Shown piece by piece: positions 12,180 through 51,500 of a stretch of 64,000 nt of DNA. The translations under genes and the position numbers were made by a program. Origin of the DNA: a virus. Every line of letters starts with the position of its first letter. The first letter of the stretch is position 1. The stretch spans positions 32,001-96,000 of the IMG/VR virus record IMGVR_UViG_3300035704_000001. The stretch is one strand, 5' to 3'. The notes below the pieces were generated by a model that saw only the letters and a program-made list of their open reading frames with translations, ran no database searches and was not told the DNA's origin.

Positions 12180-12458
12180 ATGGGGATACTGACAGACGAC
12201 CAGGGCCGGTTCCATGACCCGGACTGCGCCGCCTCGCATGCGTTCTTCGTCGAAGACCGCGGGCACGTCAGCGTGGCGGCGGAGGCGGCGAAGATGATCC
12301 GGGCCGGCGGCATCGCGGCCGTCCGGGCCCGGGTCTGGCTGCACCGCCGGGGCCTGGCCGAGTCCGAGCTGGGCACCGCCGCCGGGCGGGCCCGGGTCAA
12401 CACCATCGCGGCCGGGATGCACGGCTGCTTAACAGCGACAGGGAAGGCACGAAAATGA
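12180..12458 (+). CDS. hypothetical protein (in-frame TTA at 12429)
   Basis: leaderless ATG 7 nt after the -10 box. Confidence 0.55.
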   Translation: MGILTDDQGRFHDPDCAASHAFFVEDRGHVSVAAEAAKMIRAGGIAAVRARVWLHRRGLAESELGTAAGRARVNTIAAGMHGCLTATGKARK

Positions 12459-13318
12459 CCGTGAAGAAGTGGGACGTCTGGAACCTTGACCGCGAGACCA
12501 TGGCCGGCCTGGTGGTCAGCGAGGGCGTCACCGAGAAGGAAGCAAACGCGGACGCGGACAAGCGCAACGCCACCGCGGTGCGGCTGAAGATGCCCGGCAT
12601 CGCGTTCGTGGCGCTGCCCCAGGGCCGTCAGCCTGCCGAGTCGGACCTGCCGCCGCTGCCGGCAGCGGAGAAGGGCGAGCTGCGCGCCGACTGGGCCCGC
12701 GGCCAGGCCGGCAACGGCTACCTCGGCGTCCTGACCCGGCAGCCGCACAACGACCGCTACGTCCTCGCCGACGGCCAGAAGTTCCTCTGGTCCTGCGGGC
12801 ACGTCCACATGCGGCACCGCGAGGCCGTCGCCTGCGCGCAAGCCGAGCTGGACCGCCCGTGGGTGCAGCGGATGAGCCGCGAGGGGCACCAGGTCGGCCG
12901 GTACAGCCGGATCTACTGGGGCAAGCTGCGGACCTCCGCCGACCCGGCCGACCGGGACCTGTACCTGGAGTCGGACAACGGCACGTCCATCGTGTGCTTC
13001 TCTCCCGGCGACATGCCGGCGCTGCGCGCCGCGGTGCTGCCGGAGTCCGAGGTCCTGAAGGCGCTGCAGGACAAGTGGTCGGCCAAGCTGGGCCCGGGCG
13101 GCCGCACGGCTGTCGCCGAGGGGCACATGCAGGGCTACCGGCTGGGTGTCGGCGACATGGAGAACACCCCGGTCTACCGCACCGCCCCGGCGGACGCGGA
13201 CGCCGTGATCAGCTTCCTGACCGGCCTGGCGGGCACGCCGGCAGCCATCCAGGGCGGGAAGCTGGATGCCCTCGGCACGGTGACGGAGTTCCTGGAGCAG
13301 CTGAAGGGCCAGTCCTGA
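12455..13318 (+). CDS. hypothetical protein
   Basis: CAGGGAAGGCAC at 12439-12450; high GC3. Confidence 0.7.
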   Translation: MTVKKWDVWNLDRETMAGLVVSEGVTEKEANADADKRNATAVRLKMPGIAFVALPQGRQPAESDLPPLPAAEKGELRADWARGQAGNGYLGVLTRQPHNDRYVLADGQKFLWSCGHVHMRHREAVACAQAELDRPWVQRMSREGHQVGRYSRIYWGKLRTSADPADRDLYLESDNGTSIVCFSPGDMPALRAAVLPESEVLKALQDKWSAKLGPGGRTAVAEGHMQGYRLGVGDMENTPVYRTAPADADAVISFLTGLAGTPAAIQGGKLDALGTVTEFLEQLKGQS

Positions 13319-13659
13319 TGACCCCGGACATCCAGAGCGAAGTCGCCGACGACCTGAACTACCTGGAGGCGCACGGCGCGCTGGCCGGCGTGGCCGAGGT
13401 GATCCGCGAGCGGCGGCGGCAGATCGAGCAGCTGGGCTACACCGTCACGCACGACGGCACCGAGCACGACGACGGCAACCTGGTGCACCGCGCCGCCGCC
13501 AAGCTGGGCTTCGCCCAGCTGGACCGGGTGACCGGCACTGCTGACCCGGCTTCGGACGAAAGATGGCTGCGCGAGGCCGGCGCGCTGGCCGCGGCCGAGA
13601 TCGACCGCCTGACCCGGCTGCTGGCCCCGGATGACCCCCGAGGAAAGGACCCGTCCTAG
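13318..13659 (+). CDS. conserved phage hypothetical protein
   Basis: ERRRQIEQLGYTVTHD...AGALAAAEIDRL pattern common in phages. Confidence 0.65.
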   Translation: MTPDIQSEVADDLNYLEAHGALAGVAEVIRERRRQIEQLGYTVTHDGTEHDDGNLVHRAAAKLGFAQLDRVTGTADPASDERWLREAGALAAAEIDRLTRLLAPDDPRGKDPS

Positions 13660-14956: not shown

Positions 14957-15267
14957 GCGAGTTCGAGATCTACCCGGGAGGCAGGCAAGTGAGCGAGGAA
15001 ACGGACCAGGCCCAGCGGGACGCGATGCTGGCGGCCGTGCTGGCCGTGGTCGGCGAGCACCCGGAGGGATGCACGTCGCAGGACGTCGAGCATGCGGTGC
15101 CGGGCAAGATGCTGCGGCAGGGACGCCCGGCCGTCACCATGTCCCGGGACCGGGCCAAGGCGCTGCTGCGCGAGCTGGCCGGGCAGGACAAGATCCACAG
15201 CCAGCGCGGCCAGGCCACGGTCCTGTACTTCTCCGGCGCGGCACGGGAGGCCAGCGGTGCGGAATGA
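14953..15267 (+). CDS. hypothetical, possible winged-helix protein
   Basis: GTGA coupling; HPEGCTSQDV...KALLRELA pattern. Confidence 0.5.
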   Translation: MSEFEIYPGGRQVSEETDQAQRDAMLAAVLAVVGEHPEGCTSQDVEHAVPGKMLRQGRPAVTMSRDRAKALLRELAGQDKIHSQRGQATVLYFSGAAREASGAE

Positions 15268-15592
15268 CCCGCAGGGCGACGTCACCGAGCTGCGCGAGCT
15301 GCGGATGGAGATGCTGAAGCTGGGCGCGCAGCTCGGCCAGACCCCGCTCACCACGGACACCGCGGTGGAGTTCGCCGTCCGGTGCCAGCTGCGCGCCCAG
15401 CGGCTGAAGCTGGCTGCCGGCGTCACCTGGGGCGACTACGAGCTGATCAGGGCGCACCGGGGCGAGGCGGTCTTCGCGCTGAAGCAGCCGCCGGAGTCCA
15501 GCCCGCTGGGCGGCCCGCGCTGGAGCATCACCGTCGCGCAGGGCCTGGAGGAGCTGGCCGTCAAGCTGGGGACGTTCGAGGACGGCCGTTAG
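15257..15592 (+). CDS. hypothetical protein
   Basis: GGAGG RBS before GTG. Confidence 0.55.
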   Translation: MRNDPQGDVTELRELRMEMLKLGAQLGQTPLTTDTAVEFAVRCQLRAQRLKLAAGVTWGDYELIRAHRGEAVFALKQPPESSPLGGPRWSITVAQGLEELAVKLGTFEDGR

Positions 15593-28336: not shown

Positions 28337-28791
28337 CGAAGCTGGTGCTGCGGATGCTGACCGGGCAGGAGATGGCTGACGAGGATGCCTGGCGGTACCA
28401 GCAGGAGGTGGACCTCGCCTGGCACCGGTGGAAACTGGCCAGCTGCGAGGAGCGGGGCGGGCACTGGTGGTTCCTGGAGATCCACCCGGACGACGGTATC
28501 TACCTGAGCTGCCTCGGCTGCGGCGCCGACGTCGATGACCTCATCCCCGACGGGTCCGACCTGATGACCGGCACGTTCAGGGTCATGGAAGGCTACGACC
28601 TGACCCTGGACATGGGCGATGTCATCGTCAACGGGCGGTACCAGGATCGCGGCGGCTACTGGGCCTGCGGCGGGATGAACATCGTCTACGGCTGGCGCGG
28701 CCCGGTGACCGCGAGCATCCGCACCGAGAAGTACGGCGGCTACTTCGAGCCGGCGGAATATGACGTCTGGATCGACCTGGAGGCCGTGTGA
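28333..28791 (+). CDS. hypothetical protein
   Basis: GTGA coupling. Confidence 0.6.
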   Translation: MTKLVLRMLTGQEMADEDAWRYQQEVDLAWHRWKLASCEERGGHWWFLEIHPDDGIYLSCLGCGADVDDLIPDGSDLMTGTFRVMEGYDLTLDMGDVIVNGRYQDRGGYWACGGMNIVYGWRGPVTASIRTEKYGGYFEPAEYDVWIDLEAV

Positions 28792-29615
28792 CCCCTGACG
28801 AGACGTTCGCCGCGCTGCCTCCCGCCCTGCTGCTGCTCGGGCCCGGGAGCTGGGACGCCGCGCTGAGCCTGTACGAGGCGAATCGGTCCTCGTTCAGCAC
28901 CAAGGTGGAGAAGCTGGACATCGAGCTGGCCCGCTACGTCCGGGCCCAGGCCTACATCAAGCCGTTCGGCCGGGAGGTCAAGGTCATCCTCATCGGCCTG
29001 GACGGCGCCTCCGCGGCCGCCCAGGACACCCTGCTGAAGCTGCTGGAGGAGCCGCCCTCTTACGTCCGGCTCATCCTGGCTGCGGCGCTGCCGCCGGCCG
29101 ACACCGTGGTGTCCCGGTGCCGGGTGCTCGTGCAGGGGACCGCCCCCGAGCCCGGTACCGACCCCGAGACCGATGCCGCCCGGCAGACGGTGGCGGCCGC
29201 GGTCCGCGCCGCCCGCGACGGGCATGCCGAGCTGCTGGCCGCGACGACGGCCAAGTGGGGCGACGTGCACACCGCGCAGCTCCGGGCCTGGGCGGCTGAG
29301 CGGGCCGCTGACCGCTGGCTGCAGTTCCCCGAGGACTTCATCACCGGCGTCTCCATCCCGCAGGCCCTGGTCATCCTGGCGGCGCTGACCGCCTTCTCCG
29401 GGTCGCGCACCTCTCACCTGGTCGCGTTCGACCGGGCGTTCCGGAGATTACAGAGATTCGCACGGGTTTTTCCCGGGCCCGCGGCCGATGGGTTAGCCCA
29501 TGACACGAGTCAACGGTCACGGGTCCCAGAAGAAGCCTGCCCAGCCGCAGCAGGTCCCGCCGCCGCCCCAGATCCCGCTGGAGCAGCTGCAGCAGCAGTT
29601 CGAGGCCGTCCGTGA
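28788..29615 (+). CDS. DNA Pol III delta'-like clamp-loader subunit (homology appears to end at TTA 29448)
   Basis: KVILIGLDGASAAAQDTLLKLLEEPPSYVRLIL...TVVSRC. Confidence 0.8.
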   Translation: MTPDETFAALPPALLLLGPGSWDAALSLYEANRSSFSTKVEKLDIELARYVRAQAYIKPFGREVKVILIGLDGASAAAQDTLLKLLEEPPSYVRLILAAALPPADTVVSRCRVLVQGTAPEPGTDPETDAARQTVAAAVRAARDGHAELLAATTAKWGDVHTAQLRAWAAERAADRWLQFPEDFITGVSIPQALVILAALTAFSGSRTSHLVAFDRAFRRLQRFARVFPGPAADGLAHDTSQRSRVPEEACPAAAGPAAAPDPAGAAAAAVRGRP

Positions 29616-38334: not shown

Positions 38335-38377
38335 TAACTGGGTGAGACCGAGCCCACGATAAGACCGGGAGACCCAG

Positions 38378-39523: not shown

Positions 39524-39524
39524 C

Positions 39525-39552: not shown

Positions 39553-39614
39553 GGTGACAAGGGCGGGCCGTGGCGTTATCGCAGGCGGCCCGCTCATCCA
39601 GAGGGAGATGGCTG

Positions 39615-39917
39615 ATGGCATCACGGTTCGATCTCAGCCTCCAGGTCAAGCAGTTCGTGGCCGAGCTGAACGGGGCCTTCGGCTCCCGCTGGCGGGTGTT
39701 CCGCACCGGTACCGCGGCCTACCTGTTCGTGCTCGTGCAGAACCCGGACATCTACCGGGTGGCGCACCCGCGCGAGCTGCAGCCGCAGGTGCGCAGCGCG
39801 CTGGCGCACGGCTGGGGACATGCAGACAATCGCTGCTCGAATTGCGGTCAGCTGGTGCGTGATCACTGCACGATCCACCTCATCCCGTGCTGCCCGGGCC
39901 GGTGCCCTGATGCCTAG
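39615..39917 (+). CDS. hypothetical protein with Cys-rich C-terminus
   Basis: GGGAG RBS. Confidence 0.6.
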   Translation: MASRFDLSLQVKQFVAELNGAFGSRWRVFRTGTAAYLFVLVQNPDIYRVAHPRELQPQVRSALAHGWGHADNRCSNCGQLVRDHCTIHLIPCCPGRCPDA

Positions 39918-40089
39918 GGCGCTGACCGCCGTCTACACCTGCGAGGGCTGCGCCGAGGAGGTCGAGGGTACCTGGCCGGCCCCGGAGGACCAGGACGACG
40001 ACGTGTCCGAGACTGTCCAGGAATGTCCATGCGGGCATCCCCAGGTCGTGGCCTATCCTGGCTACTCGTTCCGGACGGAGGCAGGATGA
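39910..40089 (+). CDS. small Zn-ribbon protein
   Basis: CEGC...CPCGH. Confidence 0.55.
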   Translation: MPRALTAVYTCEGCAEEVEGTWPAPEDQDDDVSETVQECPCGHPQVVAYPGYSFRTEAG

Positions 40090-40310
40090 ACGGATTGTTC
40101 TGGGCCTTGCTGGCCGTCTGGTCGTGGCTGACTGTCTTCCTCGTGCTCAACGTGTGGTTCCCCCGTCCGGTGAAGCTGTGGGAGCGGGGCCGGTGGGCCC
40201 TGATCTTCGAGCCCTGTGACTGCTGGGTGGGCGGCTACTACGACCGCGAGGACCGGCGGGTGTACCTGATCGCGGTGCCGACGCTGGCGCTGCGCTACTC
40301 CCGGCCGTAG
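40086..40310 (+). CDS. small membrane protein
   Basis: GGAGG RBS; N-terminal TM segment. Confidence 0.55.
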   Translation: MNGLFWALLAVWSWLTVFLVLNVWFPRPVKLWERGRWALIFEPCDCWVGGYYDREDRRVYLIAVPTLALRYSRP

Positions 40311-40318
40311 TAACGGGC

Positions 40319-41272
40319 ATGACGCTCACGCGCATCGACATCGCCGACTTCCAGAGCCTGCAGCGGGCCACCATCCCGGTGGGGAGGCTGACCACCGTCA
40401 CCGGACCGACCGGCGCGGGCAAGTCCTCGGTCCGCCGGGCCGCCCTGCTGGCCGCCCAGAACGCCCGGGGCGTGGACTTCATCCGCCGCGGCGCCGCCCG
40501 GGCCGCCGTGGTGCTGTCCTTCGACAGCCCCGAGGGCCCGTTCACCGTGGCCATCCGCCGCACCGCCGCCGGACGCGGGGACCTGTACCGGGTCACCCGG
40601 GCCGACGGCACGTCAAAGGAGTACACCAAGCTGGGGGGCGGGGTGCCGGATGCGGTGGCGGACCTGCTGCGGCTGGGCCCGCTCAACTTCGTCGGCCAGC
40701 TCGACCCGCCGTACCTGCTGAGCGCTACCGGCACCGACGTGGCCCGGACGCTGGGCGAGCTGACTAACGTCTCGCTGGTGTTCCGCGCGGCCGCCGAGGC
40801 CGGCCGGCGCCGCAAGGGCTTCGACCGGGACGCCAAGTCCGCGGATACCCGGCTGGAGGCGCTGCGGGCAGAGGAGGAGGGCTTCGCCGGCCTGCCGGCC
40901 CAGCTCGACGCGATCCGGCAGGCCGCCGACGGCGTGGGCCACATGACCCGGATGGAGGGGGACCTGCTGCGGCTGGGCGGGCTGATCTGCCGGATGGACG
41001 AGCTGGCCGGCAAGCTGGCCGCTGCCAGGGCCGCTGCCGCCAGGGCCGCTCCGCCGGACCTGGGACGGCTGGAGCGCGGCCTGGCCACGTACCAGCGGCT
41101 GCAGGGGCTGATCGGCCGCCAGGAAGCGGCTGAGGCCGAGCTGGCCCGGTGCCAGGCCCGCGCAGCCGACGCCCTGTGCCGTGAGAAGCAGGCGCACACG
41201 GCGTTCCGTACCGAGCTGGAGGCGGCCGGGACGTGCCCGTTGTGCGAACAGGGCATCCCCGCGGCCGGCTAG
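40319..41272 (+). CDS. SbcC/Rad50 N-terminal half (Walker A, coiled coil, Zn hook)
   Basis: IADFQS, GPTGAGKS, Q-loop GQLD, ends CPLCEQ; no Walker B. Confidence 0.85.
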   Translation: MTLTRIDIADFQSLQRATIPVGRLTTVTGPTGAGKSSVRRAALLAAQNARGVDFIRRGAARAAVVLSFDSPEGPFTVAIRRTAAGRGDLYRVTRADGTSKEYTKLGGGVPDAVADLLRLGPLNFVGQLDPPYLLSATGTDVARTLGELTNVSLVFRAAAEAGRRRKGFDRDAKSADTRLEALRAEEEGFAGLPAQLDAIRQAADGVGHMTRMEGDLLRLGGLICRMDELAGKLAAARAAAARAAPPDLGRLERGLATYQRLQGLIGRQEAAEAELARCQARAADALCREKQAHTAFRTELEAAGTCPLCEQGIPAAG

Positions 41273-41287
41273 GCGATAGCATGGGGC

Positions 41288-42334
41288 GTGGGATACGCAA
41301 CCGGCGAAGACCGGTCTGACTTCCAGGCTGGGGGCCAGCCCTGGGGGGCCAACGACTTCGGCTTTACCAAGTTCACCGAGAGTGACAACTGGAAGGCCAG
41401 GACCGCGAAGGGCAACTGGTCGGCCATGCGGGCCGCGGGCATCCACCGCGGTGCCTATCACTTCTTCCACCCGGCTGTCTCGGCCGTGGCGCAGGCCAAC
41501 TTCTTCATCAGCGCGGTGCGGGCCGCCGGGGGCTGGGAGGACGGCGACATGTTCGCCGGGGACTTCGAGATCGCCCTGGGCGAAGGCGGCGCGGAAGTGG
41601 CCGGGGAGCCCGCGCTGCGCCGGATGCACGCTCCGCTGCTGGCGCTGTCGGCACACCGGATGGGCACCACGGTGGGCTCGGGCGCGCTGCAGTTCCTCAA
41701 CCGGGTGGCCGAGCTGGTCGGCCCGGCCTGCCCGGTGGTGGCGTACACCTACAGCGCGTTCCGGTCGAACGTGGCCAGCTGTGTCAGGTACCCGCTGTGG
41801 ATCGCCTCGTACTCGATGTCCCCGCCGGCCTCGGTCAGCCCGTGGCGCGACTGGACGATGTGGCAGAACTCTGACCACGGAGGCCAGGGCGGCGGGGACA
41901 CCAACCGGTTCAACGGCAACGCGGGGGCGCTGCAGAGCTGGCTGGACTCGCTTGCTCCCGCCCCCGCCAGCTGGACGGAGACCACCTTGAGCGAGCTGCC
42001 CACCCTGACCCAGGGCATGAAGGACCAGCCCGGGGCCAATACGGCCGTCGGCAAGATGCAGGCCCTGGTCGCGCACGTCGGCCGGAAGAACAACCTGGCC
42101 AAGTCGAAGGTGCTCGCCGACGACGGCGTTTTCGGCGCGACCACCAAGGCCGCGGTCACCGAGATCCAGGCGTTCTTCAAGATCACCGGCGGCAACGGCG
42201 AGTGCGGAAAGCGCACCTGGGAAGCCCTGCTGCTGGGTCACGTCTCGTTATGTCGGTGCCTCGTGCGTAGATACAGGTGTGGCAACTTATGGGCTTCTCT
42301 CCGACATTCACCTGACCCGGCGGGCTCCGGTTAA
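41288..42334 (+). CDS. endolysin: GH25 lysozyme plus peptidoglycan-binding domain (domain ends at TTA 42248)
   Basis: DRSDFQ, KFTE, GAYHFF, DFE, LWIASY, MWQ, DTN; DGVFGATTKAAV...TWEAL. Confidence 0.88.
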   Translation: MGYATGEDRSDFQAGGQPWGANDFGFTKFTESDNWKARTAKGNWSAMRAAGIHRGAYHFFHPAVSAVAQANFFISAVRAAGGWEDGDMFAGDFEIALGEGGAEVAGEPALRRMHAPLLALSAHRMGTTVGSGALQFLNRVAELVGPACPVVAYTYSAFRSNVASCVRYPLWIASYSMSPPASVSPWRDWTMWQNSDHGGQGGGDTNRFNGNAGALQSWLDSLAPAPASWTETTLSELPTLTQGMKDQPGANTAVGKMQALVAHVGRKNNLAKSKVLADDGVFGATTKAAVTEIQAFFKITGGNGECGKRTWEALLLGHVSLCRCLVRRYRCGNLWASLRHSPDPAGSG

Positions 42335-43277
42335 CTGCACCGAGTCCTACCTGGAGGACCTGTTCGACCTCCTCCGGCAGGCGTTCGCGGTGTTCGCGCG
42401 GCGCAAGGTGGCCGCCGCTCTCGTCGCCGGCGACCTGTTCCACCACAAGGCGCCGACCCGGACCGATCACGAGATCGTCGGCACGCTGGCCGAGATGTTC
42501 CAGTCCCTGGACTACCCGGTGTGGATCGTCCCGGGCAATCACGACATGCAGAACGACCGGATCGAGTCGGTGGGCAAGACCCAGCCGCTGGGGGTGCTCT
42601 ACAAGGACCGCAGCGCGTACTGCCTGGACGGCTGGATGGGCGGGGAGCACCCGGTGTTCGGGGTGCCGTGGCAGCAGCACTGGTCCGAGGAGCGGATCGC
42701 GGAGTGCCTGCGCCCCTGGCGCGAGTACACGCCGTTCGAGGCGACGAGCGAGAGCTACCTGATCGTCACCCACGCGCCGATCTACCCGCCGTCCTGTGAG
42801 CCCCGCTACGAGGGCGCGGAACTGACCCCAGCCGACTGGTGGGCCGAAGCCGCGGGAGGCAGCCCCGGCGCGCACAGCGTGTTCTATGGCCATATCCACG
42901 AGCGCCACGGAACCTGGGAGCGCGGCGGGGTCACCTTCTGCAACAACGGGGCCCTGTCGCGCGGCTCGATCGGCGAGGACAACCTGACCCGGGCCATCGG
43001 GGCGACGCTGTGGACCCCGGGCGAGGGCTTCGAGTTCGTGCCGCTGGACGCCAAGCCGGCCGCGGAGGTGTTCCGGCTGCGCGAGCACGGGCAGGCGGTC
43101 ACCTCGCAGATGAGCCTGGACACGTTCATGGCCGGGCTCGGGTCTACCGTGCTGCCGCGGCTGGAGCCGGAGTCGGTGCTGGCCCGGTTCCGCGAGGACG
43201 ATGCCGGCGCGGACGAGATCGCCCTGGCCGAGGAGCTGCTGGACTGGGCCGGCGCCGAGGGGAAGGTAAAGCGATGA
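42279..43277 (+). CDS. SbcD/Mre11-like metallophosphoesterase nuclease
   Basis: SDIHL, AGDLFH, PGNHD, THAP, GHIH, GALSR. Confidence 0.9.
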   Translation: MATYGLLSDIHLTRRAPVNCTESYLEDLFDLLRQAFAVFARRKVAAALVAGDLFHHKAPTRTDHEIVGTLAEMFQSLDYPVWIVPGNHDMQNDRIESVGKTQPLGVLYKDRSAYCLDGWMGGEHPVFGVPWQQHWSEERIAECLRPWREYTPFEATSESYLIVTHAPIYPPSCEPRYEGAELTPADWWAEAAGGSPGAHSVFYGHIHERHGTWERGGVTFCNNGALSRGSIGEDNLTRAIGATLWTPGEGFEFVPLDAKPAAEVFRLREHGQAVTSQMSLDTFMAGLGSTVLPRLEPESVLARFREDDAGADEIALAEELLDWAGAEGKVKR

Positions 43278-43438
43278 GCAGCCAGGATGGCTGGAGGGAC
43301 CGGTTCGCGCCGGACTACGACAAGTGCGCCTCACCGCGCTGCCAGGTGCCCGGGGGGATCATCGAGCCCGCCGACACGGTGCTCTACGACGGCGCCGGGC
43401 TGCAGGTGCACGAGGATTGCGAGGTGCCCGGTGCGTAG
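43274..43438 (+). CDS. small hypothetical protein
   Basis: ATGA coupling; C..C...HEDC. Confidence 0.5.
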   Translation: MSSQDGWRDRFAPDYDKCASPRCQVPGGIIEPADTVLYDGAGLQVHEDCEVPGA

Positions 43439-43661
43439 TCTCCGGCTGACCTATACCGTCGAGGCCTCGTACGACGATGAGCCGCCTGAGATCAAGGTGT
43501 TCCGGTTCCCGTCAAAACCCTGGTGGGGCTGCGTCGTCATGCTCTACCTCGGGCGCCTGGCCGCCATTGCCGGCCCGGCGAGACTGAAGGGCGGGACCAT
43601 CGTGACGCGCCTGGCGGATGGCTCGGTCGAGTACCTGGAGCGGAGGAAGCCCGATGCCTGA
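43431..43661 (+). CDS. hypothetical protein
   Basis: GAGG RBS, overlap chain. Confidence 0.5.
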   Translation: MRSLRLTYTVEASYDDEPPEIKVFRFPSKPWWGCVVMLYLGRLAAIAGPARLKGGTIVTRLADGSVEYLERRKPDA

Positions 43662-44526
43662 CACCGGCTACAAGCCCATCCGGCTGTCCTGGTCCCGGCT
43701 GCGGGTGCACGACGAGTGCCCGGCCAAGGGCGACCTGATCTCGAAGCGGCAGAAGGGCGCGCTCACCGACACCCGCAACTTCCTGCACGGCAATGTCTGC
43801 GACCTCGCCATGCGGCGGTTCCTGAGCCTGGAGGCGCCCGCGGATGAGCTGGGCTGGATGGCCCGCCAGGTAGACGAACTCTTCGACGAGTGGATAGAGA
43901 TTGCGAAGAGTTCCGGGGACGGGATCATCAAGTGGCGCCACGCTGCCGACCAGGCCGAGGTGCGCGAATTCTGCCGGGAGGCGGTGACCCGGCTCGAAGA
44001 GCTGCTGGTCAGGTTCGTGCTGCCGTTCGACTGGTATCCGGCGTGGCGCTTCAACGTCCCGGTGAAGATCCATTACGGCCACGAGATCCGCGAGATTACG
44101 CTGACTGGCGAGGCCGACCTGCTGGTGTTCGACAAGCACGGCCGGATCTTCATCTGGGACCTCAAGGCGACCAAGGACGACAGCTACTGGCGCAAGACGC
44201 TGGCGCAGCTGGCGTTCTACGCGCTCGCGGTGAAGTGCGAGCGGGAGGAGGCCCTGCCGGAGGAGGAGAAGAAGCTGGGCCGGTGGCCGTACCGGGCCGG
44301 CCTGCTCCAGCCGATGTGCACCGAGCGGTTCCTGACGTTCGACGTCATGGCCGACGGCGGCCAGGCCATCCGCGAGATGACGAGCCGGATCGAGCGCGTG
44401 TCCGCGGACATCTGGGCAGGGCGCCTGGACCCTAAGCCGCAGGAGTGGTGCAACCGGTGCGAGGTGCGCCACGCCTGCCCGCTGTTCGCGCCGGGTTCCG
44501 GCCGCAAGGTGAAGATGGCGGCGTAG
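43654..44526 (+). CDS. PD-(D/E)XK RecB/Cas4-like exonuclease with Fe-S cysteines
   Basis: LSWSRL..HDECP; GEAD...IWDLKAT; QLAFY; CNRCEVRHACP. Confidence 0.85.
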   Translation: MPDTGYKPIRLSWSRLRVHDECPAKGDLISKRQKGALTDTRNFLHGNVCDLAMRRFLSLEAPADELGWMARQVDELFDEWIEIAKSSGDGIIKWRHAADQAEVREFCREAVTRLEELLVRFVLPFDWYPAWRFNVPVKIHYGHEIREITLTGEADLLVFDKHGRIFIWDLKATKDDSYWRKTLAQLAFYALAVKCEREEALPEEEKKLGRWPYRAGLLQPMCTERFLTFDVMADGGQAIREMTSRIERVSADIWAGRLDPKPQEWCNRCEVRHACPLFAPGSGRKVKMAA

Positions 44527-44534
44527 TACAGGGC

Positions 44535-44660
44535 ATGAGCGCATCCGCAATCACCGAGTTCCAGGGCGAGTGGCGCCGGCTATCCAACTTCTGCAACAAC
44601 GGCCTGAACTACCTCGGGCGCATCCTGACGATGGTCCGTGACATCGTGCGGGAGGACTAG
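44535..44660 (+). pseudogene. internally deleted NADAR (YbiA-like) remnant
   Basis: 41 aa joining ITEFQGEWRRLSNF (N-terminal motif) to GLNYLGRILTMVR (C-terminal motif). Confidence 0.7.
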
Positions 44661-44914
44661 TGGCGGACATCGCAGGCCAGGTAGGCCAGCTCAAGACCCT
44701 GGCGGACAGGGCCACCGAGGCGCGGCACCGCGCCGACGCCGCGGTGGAAGCCGTCTCGGCCCGGCTGGAGGAAACGCAGCAGGAGCTGCGGACCGAATTC
44801 GACGTGGAGAACCTGGCGGAGGCCAGGGCAAAGGAGAAGCGGATGGAGACGGCGCTGGAGGCCGAGGCAGCCCGGGTAAGCGGGCTGCTGCAGCAGGCCG
44901 GAGGACGCGCGTGA
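44660..44914 (+). CDS. short coiled-coil protein, possible SbcC middle segment
   Basis: pure heptad pattern. Confidence 0.65.
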   Translation: MADIAGQVGQLKTLADRATEARHRADAAVEAVSARLEETQQELRTEFDVENLAEARAKEKRMETALEAEAARVSGLLQQAGGRA

Positions 44915-46062
44915 GCGGCCTGACGGTGGACTACGGCAAGCACGAGTTCACGGTCAGGAGGGTCATCCTGGCCCAGCTGGCCGCGCAGGCCGCGGTGGCG
45001 GTGCCGAGCCGCGAATCGCTCGCGGTGCACGGCAGCTTCCGGGTCACCGTGGCCCCCGGCCGGCTGGAGCTGGCCGCCACTGACAGCCAGCTGACCGTGC
45101 TGGCCGCCACCAAGTCGGTGGACACGCACGACACCGCGGTGCTGTTCCTGCCGGCCAAGCGGCTCAAGGACATCATTGACGCGGCCCCCGACGGCGACGT
45201 CACCATCTCGGTATCCGGCAACATGGCCCGGGTCAAGGCCGGCGGCCCGTCCTGGGACATGAAGCTGCCCAACCCCAAGGGCTATTCCGTGCTGATCGAC
45301 CCGGCTAAGGTCACCTTCGCCGCGGTGCCGCGCGAGTCGTTCCTGGCGGCCCTGCACACCATCCGGCACGCGGTCTGCAAGGACGTCTCGCGACCGCACT
45401 ACGCGCAGGTCCAGCTGGCCAAGGACGGCGAGCACGTCTGGGCGACGGCGTTCGACGGCCCGCAGATGTGCCGGGCCAGGGTGCCCGGCTTCCCGTTCGA
45501 GACGCTGATGCCGGCTGCCATGCTGCCCGAGCTGATCAAGCTGGCCGGGCGCAGCCAGGCCGACGACATCGAGGTAGGCGAGCTGGAGGGCACCGTGGTG
45601 GTCCGCTCCGGGCATACCGTGCTGGCCTGCACGCCGATGGGCGCGGAGTTCCCCAACGTGGCCCAGCTGATGCTCGGCCCGACCTCCGGCTACGACCTGG
45701 AGCTGGCGGTGGACGGCGCCGAGCTGGCCCAGGCCATCAACCGGGTCTCGGTCAACGCCCACCCCACCACCTCGGCCATGGCGCTGACGGCGGACGGCAG
45801 GCAGCTGACCGTGCAGGCCCAGGACGACGACGACAACAGGGCCGAGGAGATCATCAGCTGCACCTGGGCCGGGGACAGCCGCACCGTCGTGATCAACCAC
45901 AAGCACCTCGCCGCGATGCTGGCCGTGCACCCGCCGGGCACCTGCACGTTCCGGCTCGGGCTCGACGTGGGCCGGCGCCGGTCCATGGTCCGGCTGGAGG
46001 ACGAGGACGGCGCCATGATCGCGGTCATCCCGCAGATGAACCCCAGTGCGGCGGGCCGCTGA
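44911..46062 (+). CDS. dnaN: DNA Pol III beta sliding clamp
   Basis: 383 aa; LELAATD, AVCKDVSRP, ATAFDGPQM, EFPN, three-domain spacing. Confidence 0.85.
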   Translation: MSGLTVDYGKHEFTVRRVILAQLAAQAAVAVPSRESLAVHGSFRVTVAPGRLELAATDSQLTVLAATKSVDTHDTAVLFLPAKRLKDIIDAAPDGDVTISVSGNMARVKAGGPSWDMKLPNPKGYSVLIDPAKVTFAAVPRESFLAALHTIRHAVCKDVSRPHYAQVQLAKDGEHVWATAFDGPQMCRARVPGFPFETLMPAAMLPELIKLAGRSQADDIEVGELEGTVVVRSGHTVLACTPMGAEFPNVAQLMLGPTSGYDLELAVDGAELAQAINRVSVNAHPTTSAMALTADGRQLTVQAQDDDDNRAEEIISCTWAGDSRTVVINHKHLAAMLAVHPPGTCTFRLGLDVGRRRSMVRLEDEDGAMIAVIPQMNPSAAGR

Positions 46063-46063
46063 C

Positions 46064-46420
46064 ATGGCTGAGGGCGCCGTCAAGTGGTACGACGACAGCA
46101 AGGGCTTCGGCTTCATCGAGCGCGAGGGCCAGGAGGACATCTGGTTCCACGCCCGGGACCGGTCCGGCAGCGTGGACGAGGCCCAGTTCCTGCCCGGTGC
46201 CCGCGTCGTGTTCACCGAGGAACTGGTCCGGGGCCGGGCCAAGGCGAACATCACCGCCGTCCTGGGCGGGTCCCGGGGCGAGCCCGAGCCGGAGCCGGAG
46301 TCCGAGCCCGCCCAGGAGTACACCGTGGATGAGGTCATCAAGGGGCTGGAGGGCGTTTTCCTGGCCGGCCTGGAGTGGCTGGACATCCTGAAGCAAGTGG
46401 CCAAGAACGGGCAGGCGTAG
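46064..46420 (+). CDS. cold-shock domain protein
   Basis: GAVKWYDDSKGFGFI...DIWFH. Confidence 0.88.
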   Translation: MAEGAVKWYDDSKGFGFIEREGQEDIWFHARDRSGSVDEAQFLPGARVVFTEELVRGRAKANITAVLGGSRGEPEPEPESEPAQEYTVDEVIKGLEGVFLAGLEWLDILKQVAKNGQA

Positions 46421-46428
46421 TAACGGGC

Positions 46429-47019
46429 ATGAGCACAGACACCGCATCCAAGTCCCTGGCCCAGATGCAGGCCGAGGTCGTCGAGTACAACCACGCGATG
46501 GGCTGGCGCGAGAACGACGTCACGTTCGGCGAGGCCATGGCCCTGCTGCACACCGAGGTGGCCGAGGCCTCCGATGCCTGGCGCCGGTGGGGTACCGACG
46601 ACGCCACTCAGGACACCCTGTATACGGCCGGACTGGGTACCCGGATACCGAATCCCAAGCCCGAGGGTGTCGGGTCGGAGTTCGCCGACGTCTTCATCCG
46701 GCTGCTCGACGACTGCGACCTGTACGAGGTCGATCTCCAGGCTGCTGTGGACCGGCATACTGGTCTCTTCGGCGTCAACGAGTCGTTCCTGGAGAACACC
46801 AACCACCTGCACACGATGATCGCCAGGGCGTCTATGGTGTTCGAGCTGGCGTGGGATGAGCCTGACCCGGCGTATGCCCTGGCGAGGGAGTTCGCCGGCA
46901 TCCTGGTGTTCCTCCGCCAGCTGTGCGAGCGCTACGGCATCGACCTGATGGCCGAGTACGAGCGCAAGATGGCCTACAACCGCACCCGGCCTTACAGGCA
47001 CGGCGGGAAGCGGCAGTGA
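46429..47019 (+). CDS. MazG-like NTP pyrophosphohydrolase
   Basis: ALLHTEVAEA...SEFADVFIRLLD; KMAYNRTRPYRHGGK. Confidence 0.85.
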   Translation: MSTDTASKSLAQMQAEVVEYNHAMGWRENDVTFGEAMALLHTEVAEASDAWRRWGTDDATQDTLYTAGLGTRIPNPKPEGVGSEFADVFIRLLDDCDLYEVDLQAAVDRHTGLFGVNESFLENTNHLHTMIARASMVFELAWDEPDPAYALAREFAGILVFLRQLCERYGIDLMAEYERKMAYNRTRPYRHGGKRQ

Positions 47020-47426
47020 GCCCGGGGAAGATCTACCTGGCTGCTGCCTACCAGCGCATCGACGAGATGCGCGGCGTTCGCGATGTGCTCGGTGCGCTGG
47101 GATACCAGGTCACCTCGCGCTGGATCGACCAGCGGGGCAAGGGGGAGGGCCTGGGGACGGCCGATCTTGCCGACAACCCGGAGCAGGGCATTCAGTATGC
47201 CGAGCTTGACCTGGAGGACCTGCGCGCAGCCGAGACGGTGATCTCGTTCACCGGAGCCAGCGGGCGCGGCGGGCGTCATGTCGAGTTCGGCGCAGCCCTC
47301 GCTCTGGGCAAGCACCTCATCATCGTCGGGCCGCGCGAACACGTGTTCCATACGCTGCCCGCCATCGAGTGGTATCCGGACTGGCCTCGCCTGGTCATGG
47401 CCCTGTCCCCGGCTGTCCGGGCGTGA
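47016..47426 (+). CDS. nucleoside 2-deoxyribosyltransferase-like protein
   Basis: KIYLAA, VTSRW, DLEDLRAAE, GGRHVEFGAALALGK. Confidence 0.8.
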   Translation: MSPGKIYLAAAYQRIDEMRGVRDVLGALGYQVTSRWIDQRGKGEGLGTADLADNPEQGIQYAELDLEDLRAAETVISFTGASGRGGRHVEFGAALALGKHLIIVGPREHVFHTLPAIEWYPDWPRLVMALSPAVRA

Positions 47427-48079
47427 CCGGCACCGCCGAGCTGGCCCGGGCCGTCGAGCGCCGCCGGTCTGAGCTGGACCGGCGGGCCGGGCAGCTGGAG
47501 CAGCTGCAGCACCAGATCGGCGTGACCGAGACCGAGCTGGCCGGCCTCCGGGCCCAGGCCGGGCTGCATGCCAGGGTGGCCCTGCGCCTGACCGCTACCG
47601 GCGAGCTGGCGCAGGAGACCGCCCGGGCCAAGGTGGAGGACCTGGCCACCCGGGCACTGGCGGTCATCTTCGGCCCGGAGCACGCGTTCGTGCTCAAGCC
47701 GGGGGACCGTGGCGGGCAGGCCACGCTGGACCTGCTGGTGCGCTCGGCCTACCCGGACGGCAAGATCGTCGAGACCGGCATCCTGGAGGCGCGCGGCGGC
47801 GGCATGGCGGCGGTGCTCGGCTACGTGCTGCGGCTGGTGAAGCTGCTGCTGACACCGGAGATCCGCAACATCCTGTTCCTGGACGAGACCTTCGGCCACG
47901 TCTCGGCCAGCGTCGAGCCGCGGGTGGCCGAGTTCCTGCGGCTGGTCTCGGACCGGACTGGCGTGCAGCACGTGCTGATCACTCACTCGACGGTCTACGG
48001 CGACTTCGCCGACCAGGCCGTCCGGCTGGAGCAGGGCGCCGACGGGATCACCGTCGTCCACCGCGGGGAGAGCGAATGA
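47423..48079 (+). CDS. SbcC/Rad50 C-terminal half (coiled coil, signature, Walker B, H-loop)
   Basis: ARGGG signature, LFLDETFGHV, LITHS. Confidence 0.85.
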   Translation: MTGTAELARAVERRRSELDRRAGQLEQLQHQIGVTETELAGLRAQAGLHARVALRLTATGELAQETARAKVEDLATRALAVIFGPEHAFVLKPGDRGGQATLDLLVRSAYPDGKIVETGILEARGGGMAAVLGYVLRLVKLLLTPEIRNILFLDETFGHVSASVEPRVAEFLRLVSDRTGVQHVLITHSTVYGDFADQAVRLEQGADGITVVHRGESE

Positions 48080-48516
48080 GCGGCGAGCTGGAGCCTTACG
48101 AGCAGAGTCCGGCCGAGCTGGCCTCGGCGTTCGAGGAGCTGCCCGAGGAAATACGCCGGGCGTGCCTGAACTACGCCCGGAGGATCGCCCTGGCCGAGGC
48201 TGCCGCCGAGACCGGGGAGGCCCCGCAGTTCATCATCCTCGGCTATGACGGCGGGACCCTGGTCTGGAGCACGGACGTGGAGTACACCCAGATGGCCCGC
48301 CGCATCGACGGGGTTGACCGGGTGCCGCTCGGGCCCGGGCCCAATGCACCCGTCGCCCGGGTGCCCCGGTGGACCATCGCCATCGGCGCGAAACTCCGCT
48401 CGTTCGAGCAGCACATCGGCGAGGACTACGGATCGGCGCTGTCCACGCTGCTCACGGACTTGCGGCGGCGGCAGCAGGCAGGCTCCCCGCCCTCCGCACT
48501 GCCTCCAGGCGAATGA
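48076..48516 (+). CDS. hypothetical protein
   Basis: ATGA coupling. Confidence 0.6.
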   Translation: MSGELEPYEQSPAELASAFEELPEEIRRACLNYARRIALAEAAAETGEAPQFIILGYDGGTLVWSTDVEYTQMARRIDGVDRVPLGPGPNAPVARVPRWTIAIGAKLRSFEQHIGEDYGSALSTLLTDLRRRQQAGSPPSALPPGE

Positions 48517-48558
48517 CCCGCCGCGGCCGGCCCGATGTAACCCGTATGAGGAGCTGCG

Positions 48559-51500
48559 ATGACCAGGACTGCTGAAGCCGCCGGCCGGTGGCTGGACGAG
48601 AACCTGTACCGGTTCGACGGCCCCGGCCAGTTCCTCGGGGACGAGCCCGGCTCCCAGCTGGCCTCGCTGGGCATGGACCGGGCCGCGCTGTGGGACTACG
48701 GCAAGGTCCGGGTGTGCCTGGCCGCGTCCTGGGACTACGCGCAGGCCTCGGGCAACATCGCCATCCCGGCGGTGCTCAATGCCATCCGGGTGGCCGGGGA
48801 GTACGTGGCCGACCGGTTCTACCTGCCGTCCACCTCGCGCGACTGGTCGATGCTGGTCAAGGGCGGGCTCGGCTGCTTCGGCATCGAGACCCGGCACCCG
48901 CTGCGGGACTTCGACGTGGTGGCCACGAGCATCAGCTACACCGTGCTGTTCCAGAACTTCAGCGCCTACCTGACGGCCTCCGGCATCCCGCTGCGCCGCG
49001 CCGACCGGGAGAAGAACCCGGAGGCCTGGCCCCTGGTGATGGCCGGCGGGCAGGCCTACTGCGCGCCCGAGTTCATGTCCGCCGTCTTCGACTGCATCTG
49101 GCTGGGGGAGGCGGAGGACGAGGAAGGCGAGTCCGGCGGCATCGGCGAGGTGTGCGGGGTCATCGCCGCGTGCAAGGCCGATGGCTGCTGGCAGCGTGAC
49201 CGGCTCGGCTGCTACCGCATGCTGGCCCGCCGGTTCAGCCACCTGTACTTCCCGCAGTTCACGGCGTTCACCTACCGCTACGAGGACCGCGGGCTGGAGC
49301 ATCCCACCAAGATGGTGGCCGGGCACTGGCCGGTGCTCGACGGCATGCGCTACCCGCACCAGCGCCGGTACATCAAGAACCTGGACAAGATGTGCCCGCT
49401 GTGCTCGGCCCCGCTGCTGTATACCGACCCGGGGATGGGCGCCGGGGACTCCGAGATCGCCCGCGGCTGCACCTGCTGGTGCCCGTTCTGCCGGCTGTCC
49501 TGGGTGACCAAGCCGTACCGGCAGCACGACGTGGACTACTCGATCCGCCAGATGCAGCTGTGGCGGCAGGCCATGGGCTCGGTGGACATCTCGCTGGTGG
49601 CCCCGGACCCGCCGGTACACACCCAGATGAAAGAGCTGCTGGCTCGCATCCTGGGCGAGGTCACCGACGAGGTGGACGCGTCGTCCATGCGGATCGACGA
49701 CTACCTGGCCGACCACGACTTCGCGCTGCTGATGACGATCGCCGGCGCCGACTCGCTCACGCTCGGGCTGGAGGGCAACTCCCAGCGGATGCGCGACCTG
49801 GCCGGCAAGGGCACCTCCGACGACGACGTGTGCGAGGTGGTCACCCGGGCCATCCGGGCCGGCATCAGGCGGATCAAGCTCTACATGATCACGAACTGGC
49901 CGGGGGAGACGGCCGCTGACGTCATGCGGATCGTTGAGCTGGGCCGCCGGCTGGCTGCCATCCGCGCGGACTTCGACGCCCAGAAGGTCCGCATCCAGTT
50001 CAGCTGGACCCCGCTGCTCATCGAGGCGCAGACCCCGCTGCAGTGGTTCGAGGTCACCGCGCCGGACTACCGGCTGCAGCAGGCCCTGGACGAGCTGCGC
50101 GACCTCGGCATCTCGATGAAGATCGGCTCGAAGGCCAACCCCGACAAGCTGGCGTTCTTCCAGGCCTGCCAGCGGGCCAGCCGCGACGCCGGGGAGGCGC
50201 TGGCGGATGTCGTCGAGGGGATCGGCGAGCCGTCCTGGGGCGGGTTCCCCAAGGACATGCAGGACCGGCTCGACGTCGCGCTTATGTCGCACGGCTTCCT
50301 CAACGGGCTGGCCGACCTGTTCGGCGAGCGGTTCCGCAGCGACCTGCTGGGCTGGGAGCACATCGACACGGGCGTGTCCACGGACCTGATGTGGCAGGTC
50401 TACGCGGACATGGTGGCGTTCCTCAAGGGCACCGACCCGGAGACCTACGACGATGCCGAGCGCGGCGCGGCCAGCGGCAACGAGTGGGTCGGCCGGTGCG
50501 ATCAGACCTGCCAGGGCGCGGCGTGCGGGGCGTGCGACCACGATGACCTCAAGCTGCGCAAGGACTACATCACCGCCACCGACCGGGACCTGGAGGCCGA
50601 GCCGGTCGACCCGGTCGACCACACCACGGTGTCCCGCCGTCTCCGCCTGCGGCTGTACCGGCCGCAGGAGTACCGGTTCGCCTCGTCCGAGTTCCTGCGC
50701 TTCCACATCCGCGCGGCCGCGTTCCGGGCGTGCGACGCCACCGGGTTCCCGGCCATCGCCAAGCGCACCGTGGGGCTGGCCTCCGACGCCACCGCCTACC
50801 GGGACCGGTCCTCGGGGGTGGAGTACGCCGAGTTCGGCGTCACCCGGCCCGTGACGGCCGGGGAGGAGCTGGAGCGGTTCCTGGACGCTCTCGGGTCCGG
50901 GCTGGCGCCCTGGCTGGAGCTGGAGGCCTGCCAGGTGCTGCCCGCGGCCGCGCGCATGCCGTCCCGGCCGGTCGGGCTGTGGGAGGTCGAGACCGACCTG
51001 ACCGAGGACGAGCTGGCCGCGCTGCTGCGCGGGTGGGACAAGGCCGGGACGGTCCGGTTCCTGCTGAAGTCGGACAGCTTCTACGCCGGCGAGCAAGCCG
51101 TGTGGATCAACGCCAAGGACCACGTGACCGACCTGTGGGCGACCCGCGCCGGGCACCGGGTAGTGGTCCGGATGCTGCTGGGCGGCAAGCTGGGCCCGTA
51201 CCAGGTCATGCAGGCGCTGCTGGGCAAGAACTCGTGGATGCCGCTGGCCAGGCACCCGGCGGTCCGGCTCGGGTTCTTCCGGCCTGGCCAGGAGGCGGGC
51301 CCGCTGCCCTGCACCGGCTGCGGGCTGCCGGTGCCCGAGGGCCTGCTCGGCGAGATCCCCGACTGCGACTGGTGCCCGCGCTGCCGTGACGAGGAGGCGG
51401 GAGAGATTATCGCCGGTCTGGCCCGCGTGGGCGTATTACAGGGCACGGAAGTTAACACCTGGGGAGAAGCCTGTGGACGCCATTCCGATGTTCGAGGACG

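What the first reader, a model, noticed from the sequence alone, without database searches (positions are those of the whole stretch)
12429..51438. In-frame TTA codons occur only where proteins appear to end: UUA may act as a stop or stall codon
Seen: scanning every TTA by eye, I found it in frame in only four credible genes, each at the apparent C-terminus. These are 12429 (12180 gene, right before the next gene's CAGGGAAGGCAC start motif), 29448 (delta', after AFDRAFRR, with a second TTA at 29493), 42248 (endolysin, right after the PG-binding domain end TWEALLLGHVS) and 51436 (radical SAM, after GLARVGV). In the last three, reading through TTA gives a junk-looking low-GC3 tail that overlaps the next gene by 116, 56 and 131 nt. 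Most genes here overlap by only 1-8 nt, although a few small hypotheticals overlap by up to ~47 nt. No TTA lies inside any conserved domain. Known: TTA is the rarest codon in high-GC actinobacteria, and in Streptomyces it depends on the bldA tRNA. Inference: the phage treats UUA as a terminator (sense-to-stop reassignment, or stall plus ribosome rescue) or as a conditional readthrough switch. A single TAA/TGA-to-TTA mutation could explain one case but hardly four.
Basis: partly seen in the sequence, partly recalled or inferred. Interest (0 to 1): 0.92.

Follow-up and report, generated by a model that had tools for sequence, protein, structure and literature searches.

The report
TTA ends genes in soil phages
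In this 150-kb high-GC soil phage and several of its relatives, the leucine codon TTA never occurs inside genes and sits exactly where related phages have TAA, TGA or TAG, so it acts as an extra stop signal, a change so far published only for mitochondria and plastids.

Summary
The window lies in a complete 150,822-bp phage genome (71% GC, 36 tRNAs, WhiB gene; host unknown, probably an actinobacterium). Across the genome no TTA lies inside a well-supported gene. Eight ORFs carry an in-frame TTA, and in seven the coding signal stops within 0-4 codons of it.

Orthologues settle the meaning. The lysin ends in TTA here and in TAA in a close relative, and the next 30 nt are identical. About half of the rSAM homologues end exactly there; the rest continue 'L' plus unrelated tails of varying length and frame. 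Of 67 delta' homologues, 54 end within one residue.

Whole genomes of three relatives show the same pattern (29 terminal TTAs, none internal). A 60%-GC relative uses TTA as Leu inside conserved motifs. An independent assembly rules out sequence error.

No phage here encodes tRNA-Leu(UAA). Only this one has a stand-alone GGQ release-factor domain, so release is probably done by the host. The release mechanism is inferred, not shown.

Earlier unchecked AI notes from this scan report the same behaviour in a 435-kb soil megaphage and in another high-GC phage group. I found no paper reporting it for phages or bacteria.

The parts
12171..12431 (+). Small gene (86 aa) that ends at TTA 12429. The standard stop, TGA 12456-12458, lies 9 codons further on and overlaps the next ATG at 12455.
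   Evidence: The coding score peaks 1 codon before the TTA and tail GC3 is 0.38. There is no Pfam hit and no homologue in the relatives searched. This is the weakest of the four cases.
28788..29450 (+). Clamp-loader delta'-like gene (220 aa) that ends at TTA 29448. A second TTA at 29493 lies in the untranslated tail. The next gene starts at ATG 29500, and the read-through stop is at 29615.
   Evidence: Pfam DNA_pol3_delta2. The coding score falls by 55 units after the TTA. Of 67 homologues, 54 end 0-1 residue after the aligned position. The closest relatives have L plus tails of 1, 15, 20 or 55 residues.
41288..42250 (+). Endolysin (GH25 plus PG_binding_1, 320 aa) that ends at TTA 42248. A second TTA at 42287 lies in the tail. 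The next gene starts at GTG 42279.
   Evidence: Pfam domains end at residue 314. The close relative L062 has TAA at exactly this codon, and the following 30 nt are identical. L006 and L007 lysins end within a few residues.
48559..51438 (+). Radical SAM protein (YgiQ-like, 959 aa) that ends at TTA 51436. The next gene starts at GTG 51473, and the read-through stop is at 51603.
   Evidence: Of 100 homologues, about half end at ...GV. The others continue L plus unrelated tails, and some fuse in frame to the next gene. At the DNA level the aligned codon is TTA or TAA. A 1-nt indel lies 7 nt after the TTA in L062. On the tree, 35 rows are TTA-like and 20 end in a stop, with at least 4 switches.
60852..64000 (+). 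Start of the phage tRNA array (36 tRNAs, genome 92852-98910). It holds Leu anticodons CAA, GAG and CAG but not UAA. Lys, Glu, Gln and Arg(AGR) each have both the NNA and the NNG reader.
   Evidence: ARAGORN and Rfam. The arrays of relatives G001, G002 and L061 also lack Leu-UAA.
61331..61463 (+). Circularly permuted tRNA-like element between tRNA-Ala(CGC) and tRNA-Pro(CGG). Its anticodon-loop position is open, and a UAA anticodon appears only for some assumed junctions.
   Evidence: ARAGORN calls a tRNA once the two halves are swapped, and the anticodon depends on the junction chosen. The element is conserved in L061 with compensating changes in both stems, but the loop there is CAC/CGC, not UUAA. 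It is therefore unlikely to decode UUA.
55562..55801 (+). Small ORF unique to this phage. Its coding signal ends near 55745, with no in-frame stop or TTA there. The first in-frame TTA is at 55799, 52 nt inside the next gene (ATG 55750).
   Evidence: The conserved motif CGATTA(C/G)CCCGGCATGG ends the epimerase gene in frame in L062, but here it lies in the +1 frame. This case is unexplained.

Best explanation
In this phage lineage UUA is a functional translation terminator. Genes that carry an in-frame TTA end there, and the sequence up to the next canonical stop is spacer, ribosome-binding site or the start of the next gene.

The most likely course of events is this. Strong GC pressure removed TTA from coding sequence. 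No tRNA-Leu(UAA) is supplied by the phage, and the host's is presumably absent or scarce. TAA-to-TTA changes at gene ends then became nearly neutral, because a ribosome with UUA in the A site is released rather than elongating.

Release is probably done by the host, either by an RF2-type factor that accepts UUA or by a GGQ rescue factor. Related phages use TTA in the same way but have no release-factor-like gene. This phage's own stand-alone GGQ protein (genome 16933-17646) may add to that.

Shown: TTA is evolutionarily equivalent to stop codons, it is absent from gene interiors, and no phage tRNA(UAA) exists. Inferred: UUA is not decoded in the infected cell, and which factor releases the peptide.
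For: 1. Whole genome: 0 internal and 8 terminal TTA-bearing ORFs. The coding score peaks 0-4 codons before the TTA in 7 of them. Fisher p = 3e-7 against other rare codons. Five of the seven largest non-coding-looking tails start at a TTA.
2. Orthologues: lysin TTA against TAA in L062, in otherwise identical context. rSAM TTA against TAA. The delta' family ends at the TTA position. The clamp, an AAA-like gene, the epimerase, the DNA polymerase and a 2893-aa tail gene end in TTA in one phage and in a canonical stop in others. At 102 aligned positions I counted TTA 44, canonical stop 33 and sense 25.
3. Tails are unconstrained. They run from 1 to about 140 residues (526 in one fusion), carry frame-changing indels between close relatives, and sometimes fuse in frame to the next gene.
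4. TTA at the rSAM end has persisted through a clade at 50-90% identity, with at least 4 switches. It is therefore not a transient defect.
5. Complete relatives G001, G002 and G010 have 29 terminal and 0 true internal TTAs. The TTA:TAA ratio among gene ends is about 0.3-0.7.
6. Contrast: G008 (60% GC), L033, L035 and L040 use TTA as Leu inside conserved motifs, for example FNA[L]LKTLEEPP.
7. No tRNA-Leu(UAA) in any of the phage tRNA sets.
8. The +4 base and the last-codon bias at TTA sites resemble those at canonical stops.
9. Independent assemblies agree.
Against: There is no protein-level or ribosome-level evidence, and no RNA run holds the stretch. The host is unknown, so whether it lacks tRNA-Leu(UAA) or has an altered RF2 cannot be checked.

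In Streptomyces, a plausible host group, UUA is decoded by the bldA tRNA later in growth (PMC10732093). Some read-through is therefore likely if the host is of that kind.

Short tails cannot be judged by codon statistics. This applies to 12429, genome 15473, and genome 137080, whose tail has GC3 of 1.0. The ORF at 55562 ends its coding signal without an in-frame TTA or stop. The phage GGQ protein is missing from ten complete relatives, three of which I showed to use TTA the same way, so it cannot be the general mechanism.
Confidence: 0.78

Rival explanations
1. Conditional stall or read-through switch. UUA is a very slow sense codon, read by a scarce bldA-type host tRNA. Placing it at gene ends lets the phage sense host physiology. 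A ribosome paused on UUA, or reading through into the next gene's start region, would tune translation of the downstream gene. Both short and extended proteins would be made.
For: UUA pausing and a uORF UUA 5-6 nt upstream of the adpA start are documented in Streptomyces (PMC10732093). Here the next start lies 2-49 nt after the TTA. The phage has a WhiB gene, which fits an actinobacterial host.
Against: The genes affected have no common theme: lysin, clamp, clamp loader, DNA polymerase, rSAM, a tail gene. TTA swaps freely with TAA, TGA and TAG at the same site between relatives. This fits a plain stop better than a conserved regulatory device. The tails show no conservation, and no backup stops appear to be selected.
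Confidence: 0.14
2. Tolerated stop-loss. TTA is read normally as Leu and the junk tails are really translated. TTA is seen only there because anywhere else it would be selected against.
For: One mutation turns TAA or TGA into TTA. C-terminal extensions are often harmless. The tail at genome 137080 looks like coding sequence.
Against: If TTA were an ordinary sense codon, other single-step stop-loss codons (CAA, AAA, GAA, TCA, TGG and so on) should show the same pattern, and they do not. TTA has persisted at the rSAM end across a deep clade while the tails drift and change frame. There are 37 terminal cases in four genomes and none internal.
Confidence: 0.04
3. Recoding at UUA. A hungry-codon +1 frameshift into an overlapping stop, or translational bypassing as proposed for the phage Hau3 terminase.
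For: Bypassing stimulated by UUA has experimental support in a Streptomyces phage (PMC10732093). Two sites here are TTA-A or TTA-G, where a +1 shift gives TAA or TAG.
Against: Six of the eight sites have C or T after the TTA and no nearby out-of-frame stop. Protein conservation ends at the TTA instead of resuming downstream, and orthologues simply stop there.
Confidence: 0.03
4. Sequencing or assembly artefact, for example miscalls at modified bases. The phage encodes DpdA, which places 7-deazaguanine in DNA.
For: A DpdA gene is present.
Against: An independent Logan assembly of run X1 is identical over 20 kb, including four of the TTAs. The same TTA is seen in many separate metagenome assemblies, including a 147.5-kb relative recovered from about 25 samples. 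The sites share no sequence context.
Confidence: 0.01

Closest known systems
UUA as a stop codon in organelles: labyrinthulean/Thraustochytrium mitochondria (NCBI table 23), peDinoflagellate plastids, and Marsupiomonadales and Pseudoscourfieldia mitochondria (PMC12574857)
   Same: TTA is absent from gene interiors. It stands where orthologues have canonical stops. Earlier annotations carry false C-terminal extensions and false gene overlaps. No cognate tRNA(UAA) is encoded.
   Different: Those are small AT-rich organelle genomes with their own altered RF2 or RF1 (a Ser204 substitution, per PMC12574857). This is a high-GC phage that must use a bacterial host's release factors. No altered codon-reading factor is known here, and the phage has no PCRF domain. 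TTA ends only about 3-6% of genes, against up to half in those plastids.
bldA-dependent UUA in Streptomyces: the adpA uORF with UUA 5-6 nt before the main start, and UUA-triggered bypassing in the phage Hau3 terminase (Antonov et al. 2023, PMC10732093)
   Same: A high-GC actinobacterial setting. UUA is extremely rare and ribosomes pause on it. UUA lies at the 3' end of an ORF just upstream of the next start codon.
   Different: There UUA is a regulated sense codon or a take-off site, and the ORF has a canonical stop 2 codons later or resumes after a gap. Here TTA replaces the stop of ordinary structural and replication genes and swaps with TAA, TGA and TAG between relatives. Conservation never resumes downstream.
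Stop-codon-recoded phages (TAG to Gln, TGA to Trp; crAss-like and Lak phages; 10.1101/2021.08.26.457843)
   Same: A phage whose effective genetic code differs from the standard one, so that standard gene calling gives wrong protein ends.
   Different: The direction is opposite: sense to stop rather than stop to sense. There is no suppressor tRNA, and TAA, TAG and TGA all remain stops.
Unassigned codons resolved by rescue: E. coli lacking RF1 (PMC6207430); codon-capture examples in Micrococcus luteus (AGA and AUA, as cited in PMC4695839)
   Same: A codon with no efficient decoder ends elongation and is resolved by rescue, frameshifting or near-cognate reading. GC pressure removes the codon first.
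   Different: In those systems unassigned codons are harmful to incoming viruses. Here the virus itself places the codon at gene ends and keeps it over long evolutionary times.

Membership tests
UUA sense-to-stop genetic code (NCBI table 23 type) | No in-frame TTA inside conserved coding sequence | tested here: met
   There are 0 well-supported internal TTAs in G000, G001, G002 and G010. Apparent internal cases are two genes fused in frame.
UUA sense-to-stop genetic code (NCBI table 23 type) | TTA occupies positions aligned with canonical stop codons of orthologues | tested here: met
   Shown for lysin, rSAM, delta', clamp, an AAA-like gene, epimerase, DNA polymerase and a tail gene. At 102 aligned positions: TTA 44, canonical stop 33.
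UUA sense-to-stop genetic code (NCBI table 23 type) | No tRNA with anticodon UAA available to the translation system | tested here: inconclusive
   The phage tRNA sets lack it. The permuted tRNA-like element is unlikely to decode. The host is unknown, so its tRNAs could not be examined.
UUA sense-to-stop genetic code (NCBI table 23 type) | A class-I release factor with altered codon recognition (RF2 SPF region or RF1) that reads UUA | not testable with these tools
   The phage has no PCRF domain. The host RF2 is unknown. In organelles this link is made in PMC12574857.
UUA sense-to-stop genetic code (NCBI table 23 type) | Proteins shown to end at the residue before UUA | not testable with these tools
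   No proteome or ribosome-profiling data are available, and no RNA run is listed.
UUA-stimulated translational bypassing or frameshifting (Hau3 terminase type) | Protein conservation resumes after a short non-coding gap that follows the UUA | tested here: not met
   Homology ends at the TTA and orthologues terminate there.
ArfB/ICT1-type stand-alone GGQ rescue factor (for the phage protein at genome 16933-17646) | RF domain 3 with a GGQ motif and no codon-recognition domains | tested here: met
   Pfam RF-1, E = 3.7e-15, residues 103-171. PDB matches cover only domain 3 of RF1, RF2 and PrfH. No PCRF domain.
ArfB/ICT1-type stand-alone GGQ rescue factor (for the phage protein at genome 16933-17646) | Basic C-terminal helix that probes the empty mRNA channel | tested here: inconclusive
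   The C-terminal region differs among the few homologues. The AlphaFold model is poor, with pLDDT 60.
ArfB/ICT1-type stand-alone GGQ rescue factor (for the phage protein at genome 16933-17646) | Found together with TTA-terminated genes, if it is the releasing factor | tested here: not met
   No RF-1 domain in ten complete relatives, including the TTA users G001, G002 and G010.

The most novel reading that the evidence does not exclude
The bacterial host, a soil actinobacterium, itself treats UUA as a stop codon or as an unassigned codon with release. Its own release factor would end translation at UUA. Several unrelated lineages of high-GC soil phages would then simply be written in their hosts' four-stop code. 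That would be the first sense-to-stop code change in a free-living organism.
Probability: 0.25. Interest if true: 0.95.

Novelty: new variant of a known kind. Interest (0 to 1): 0.86.

Why it matters
A sense codon turned into a stop has been published only for organelles. Finding it in phages of free-living bacteria would show that the bacterial translation apparatus can end proteins at UUA. It would also give the codon-capture idea a testable case: GC pressure removes a codon, which then returns with a new meaning.

It matters in practice too. Standard gene callers give these phages false C-terminal tails, false long overlaps and false gene fusions. Examples are the 1,449-aa 'rSAM-DnaX' protein and the rSAM-next-gene fusion in G001. 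Screens for alternative codes such as Codetta only test which amino acid a codon encodes, so they would probably miss this change (my understanding of the method, not checked here).

The effect is easy to test with TTA-versus-TAA reporters in Streptomyces or related hosts, with and without the bldA tRNA.

Tried and rejected
- Megablast of 18 kb against the phage collection: no match.
- tblastn of lysin, rSAM and DNA polymerase against the phage collection: only remote hits, the best being Microbacterium phage Magritte at 34%.
- Single-protein scans of viral contigs: nothing. The alignment-based scans did work.
- Genome-contig scans with a TraB-like protein and with the rSAM alignment: no relatives, so no host or prophage clue.
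- Sequencing runs: no RNA holder listed. Contigs cannot show expression.
- Looking up L006 TerL failed, apparently because of its GTG start. I used a neighbouring ATG gene instead.
- The AlphaFold model of the GGQ protein reached only pLDDT 60, so I ran no fold search.
- My first sliding-window codon classification was noisy, with a baseline 'terminal' fraction of 0.2-0.45. I replaced it with cumulative-score tests.
- Neutralising all rare codons in the gene caller produced spurious extra in-frame TTAs. On inspection these lay upstream of true starts or in very weak ORFs.
- Considered and rejected: a modified-base miscall linked to DpdA, because the sites share no motif and independent assemblies agree; the permuted tRNA-like element as a UUA decoder, because its loop is not conserved; the phage GGQ protein as the general release factor, because the relatives lack it.
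- AGA showed a high 'terminal' fraction in the noisy test but not in the cleaner one. The phage also carries tRNA-Arg(UCU).

Full report
**What the window is.** The window is bases 32001-96000 of a single 150,822-bp contig with 70.9% GC. CheckV rates the contig 100% complete. It is a tailed phage with DNA polymerase, DnaB, clamp, clamp loader, terminase and major head protein. It carries 36 tRNAs in one array, a WhiB-family gene and a DpdA gene. The WhiB gene points to an actinobacterial host, but that is an inference. No host or prophage relative was found. The source is soil metagenomes.

**Checking the observation.** I trained a codon log-odds model on the long ORFs, set TTA to neutral and called 224 genes, 216 of them on the + strand.

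- In-frame TTA occurs in seven called genes, always within the last 55 codons. An eighth ORF (genome 102441-103061) had been missed.
- In seven of the eight ORFs the cumulative coding score peaks 0-4 codons before the TTA and then falls. GC3 drops from 0.8-1.0 to 0.38-0.56.
- The eighth ORF (genome 137080, minus strand) has a 10-codon tail that still looks coding. It is ambiguous.
- Extra 'internal' TTAs appeared when all rare codons were neutralised. They lay upstream of true starts or in very weak ORFs.
- Among robust genes TTA is terminal 10 times and internal 0 times. All other rare codons together are 270 to 953 (Fisher p = 3e-7).
- Five of the seven largest non-coding-looking tails in the genome begin at a TTA.
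- After each TTA the next gene's ribosome-binding site and start follow within 2-49 nt. This removes the otherwise exceptional overlaps of 116, 56, 131, 163 and 38 nt.

**Not a sequence error.** Logan's independent contigs of run X1 match window 29400-37800 and 37947-49399 without a single difference, at about 15x depth. The same TTAs recur in many separate assemblies.

**Comparison with relatives.** The rSAM protein has about 100 homologues, many on metagenome contigs of about 150 kb.

- About half of the homologues end exactly at ...GV, the residue before the TTA. The others continue with L and then unrelated tails of 1 to about 140 residues. Some of these fuse in frame to the next gene or to the one after it.
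- At the DNA level the aligned codon is TTA or TAA.
- In the close relative L062 (a 147.5-kb genome seen in about 25 samples), the lysin ends ...GCG TAA TGTCGG... where the window has ...TCG TTA TGTCGG.... The next 30 nt are identical.
- In the same relative the rSAM tail has a 1-nt indel 7 nt after the TTA.
- Of 67 delta' homologues, 54 end 0-1 residue after the position before the TTA.
- Other genes end in TTA in one phage and in a canonical stop in others: the clamp (L006), an AAA-like gene (L010, L021, L051), the epimerase (L062), the DNA polymerase (G010) and a 2893-aa tail gene (G001).
- Across 102 aligned positions the codon opposite a TTA is TTA 44 times, a canonical stop 33 times and a sense codon 25 times. 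The sense cases are mostly ends that differ by a residue or two.
- On an rSAM tree the TTA state (35 rows) and the stop state (20 rows) need at least four switches. TTA has therefore been kept through deep divergence while the tails drift.

**Whole genomes.** I fetched four complete IMG/VR relatives and retrained the model on each one.

| Genome | Size, GC | tRNAs | Terminal TTA | Internal TTA |
|---|---|---|---|---|
| G001 | 152 kb, 70% | 35 | 10 | 0 |
| G002 | 151 kb, 68% | 37 | 6 | 0 |
| G010 | 140 kb, 67% | 1 | 13 | 0 |
| G008 | 134 kb, 60% | 1 | 3 | 10 |

- The five apparent internal cases in G001, G002 and G010 are two genes that happen to be in the same frame. Homology of the first part ends at the TTA, and a ribosome-binding site and a start codon follow.
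- Other distant relatives place TTA at conserved Leu or hydrophobic positions. One example is FNA[L]LKTLEEPP in a clamp loader.
- The change in how TTA is used is therefore specific to certain lineages and is seen only in the higher-GC members sampled.
- The TTA:TAA ratio among gene ends is about 0.3-0.7. This is what near-equivalence of two AT-only stop signals would give.

**Mechanism.**

- No phage in the family encodes tRNA-Leu(UAA). In this phage the other two-codon NNR boxes (Lys, Glu, Gln, Arg) have both readers, while Leu UUR has only CAA.
- The permuted tRNA-like element at 61331-61463 is real and conserved. However, its anticodon-loop position is open and is not conserved, so it is an unlikely decoder.
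- The phage has one RF-1 (GGQ) domain protein, at genome 16933-17646. It has no codon-reading domain. None of ten complete relatives has an RF-1 domain, and full-length homologues are confined to a few close relatives. Release at UUA must therefore rest on the host apparatus or on an unrecognised factor.
- Context at TTA sites resembles that at canonical stops: the +4 base is C, T, G, then A in decreasing frequency, and A-ending last codons are enriched. This is weak support.
- I cannot tell release-factor reading of UUA from stalling followed by rescue. Some growth-stage-dependent read-through remains possible if the host has a bldA-type tRNA (PMC10732093).

**Comparison with what is known.** UUA as a stop codon is published for labyrinthulean mitochondria (table 23), peDinoflagellate plastids and some green-algal mitochondria. 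In those cases it is tied to altered RF2 or RF1 (PMC12574857). In Streptomyces, UUA is a rare regulated sense codon that causes pausing. It lies near the end of the adpA uORF and may trigger bypassing in phage Hau3 (PMC10732093). Full-text searches found no report of TTA acting as a stop in phages or bacteria. Unchecked AI notes from this scan report the same pattern in a 435-kb soil megaphage and in another group of high-GC soil phages. A reader of the neighbouring window of this genome noted it too.

**Verdict.** The biochemical mechanism is open. I class it as a new variant of a known kind, namely a UUA sense-to-stop change now seen in phages of free-living bacteria.

Noticed in passing
window 61331-61463; L061:11416-11546: A circularly permuted tRNA-like element lies between tRNA-Ala(CGC) and tRNA-Pro. 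The 3' half, with the T arm, comes first, then a roughly 64-nt hairpin, then the 5' half with the D arm. It is conserved in a relative at 61% protein identity, with compensating changes in the acceptor and anticodon stems, but the loop differs. Its function is unknown.
   Followed up: partly
window 55562-55906: A small high-GC3 ORF that is an insertion relative to L062. Its coding signal ends at about 55745, just before the next gene's ATG (55750), with no in-frame stop or TTA there. The ancestral CGATTA terminator motif is still present but lies in the +1 frame.
   Followed up: partly
genome 16933-17646 (L001:3933-4646), outside the window: A stand-alone GGQ (RF-1 domain 3) protein with an unknown N-terminal domain of about 100 aa. 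It is found only in this phage and a few close relatives. One homologue (P0107) keeps the N-terminal domain but lacks the GGQ part.
   Followed up: partly
genome 18786-19649 (L001:5786-6649), outside the window: A DpdA homologue (Pfam E = 4e-77). The phage probably places a 7-deazaguanine base in its DNA.
   Followed up: no
window 48559-51435 and homologues P0001-P0100: A radical SAM protein of about 955 aa (YgiQ-like N-terminus, CxxC motifs near the C-terminus) is conserved in a large family of 130-155-kb soil phages. In some relatives it carries intein-like insertions (PF14528, PF14890). Its function is unknown.
   Followed up: no
many TTA sites, e.g. genome 104210, L062:17819, L013:10683, L017:16263: The codon just before a terminal TTA is often a rare A-ending codon (CGA, AGA, GTA), which gives a recurring (C/A)GATTA or GTATTA motif. 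Canonical stops show a weaker bias of the same kind: 14% of last codons end in A.
   Followed up: partly
window 37404-38070 and 32735-33401: Contig depth rises 5- to 30-fold in all four soil runs over parts of the 37270-38334 gene (its counterpart in L006 has RecA domains) and of the DNA polymerase gene. This is probably cross-matching of conserved segments from other organisms.
   Followed up: no
genome 15473-15510 (outside the window): The terminal TTA of gene 15182-15475 abuts a TTGACA...TATAG promoter-like site. That site precedes a 1.4-kb stretch with no gene, which another reader proposed to be a large non-coding RNA.
   Followed up: no
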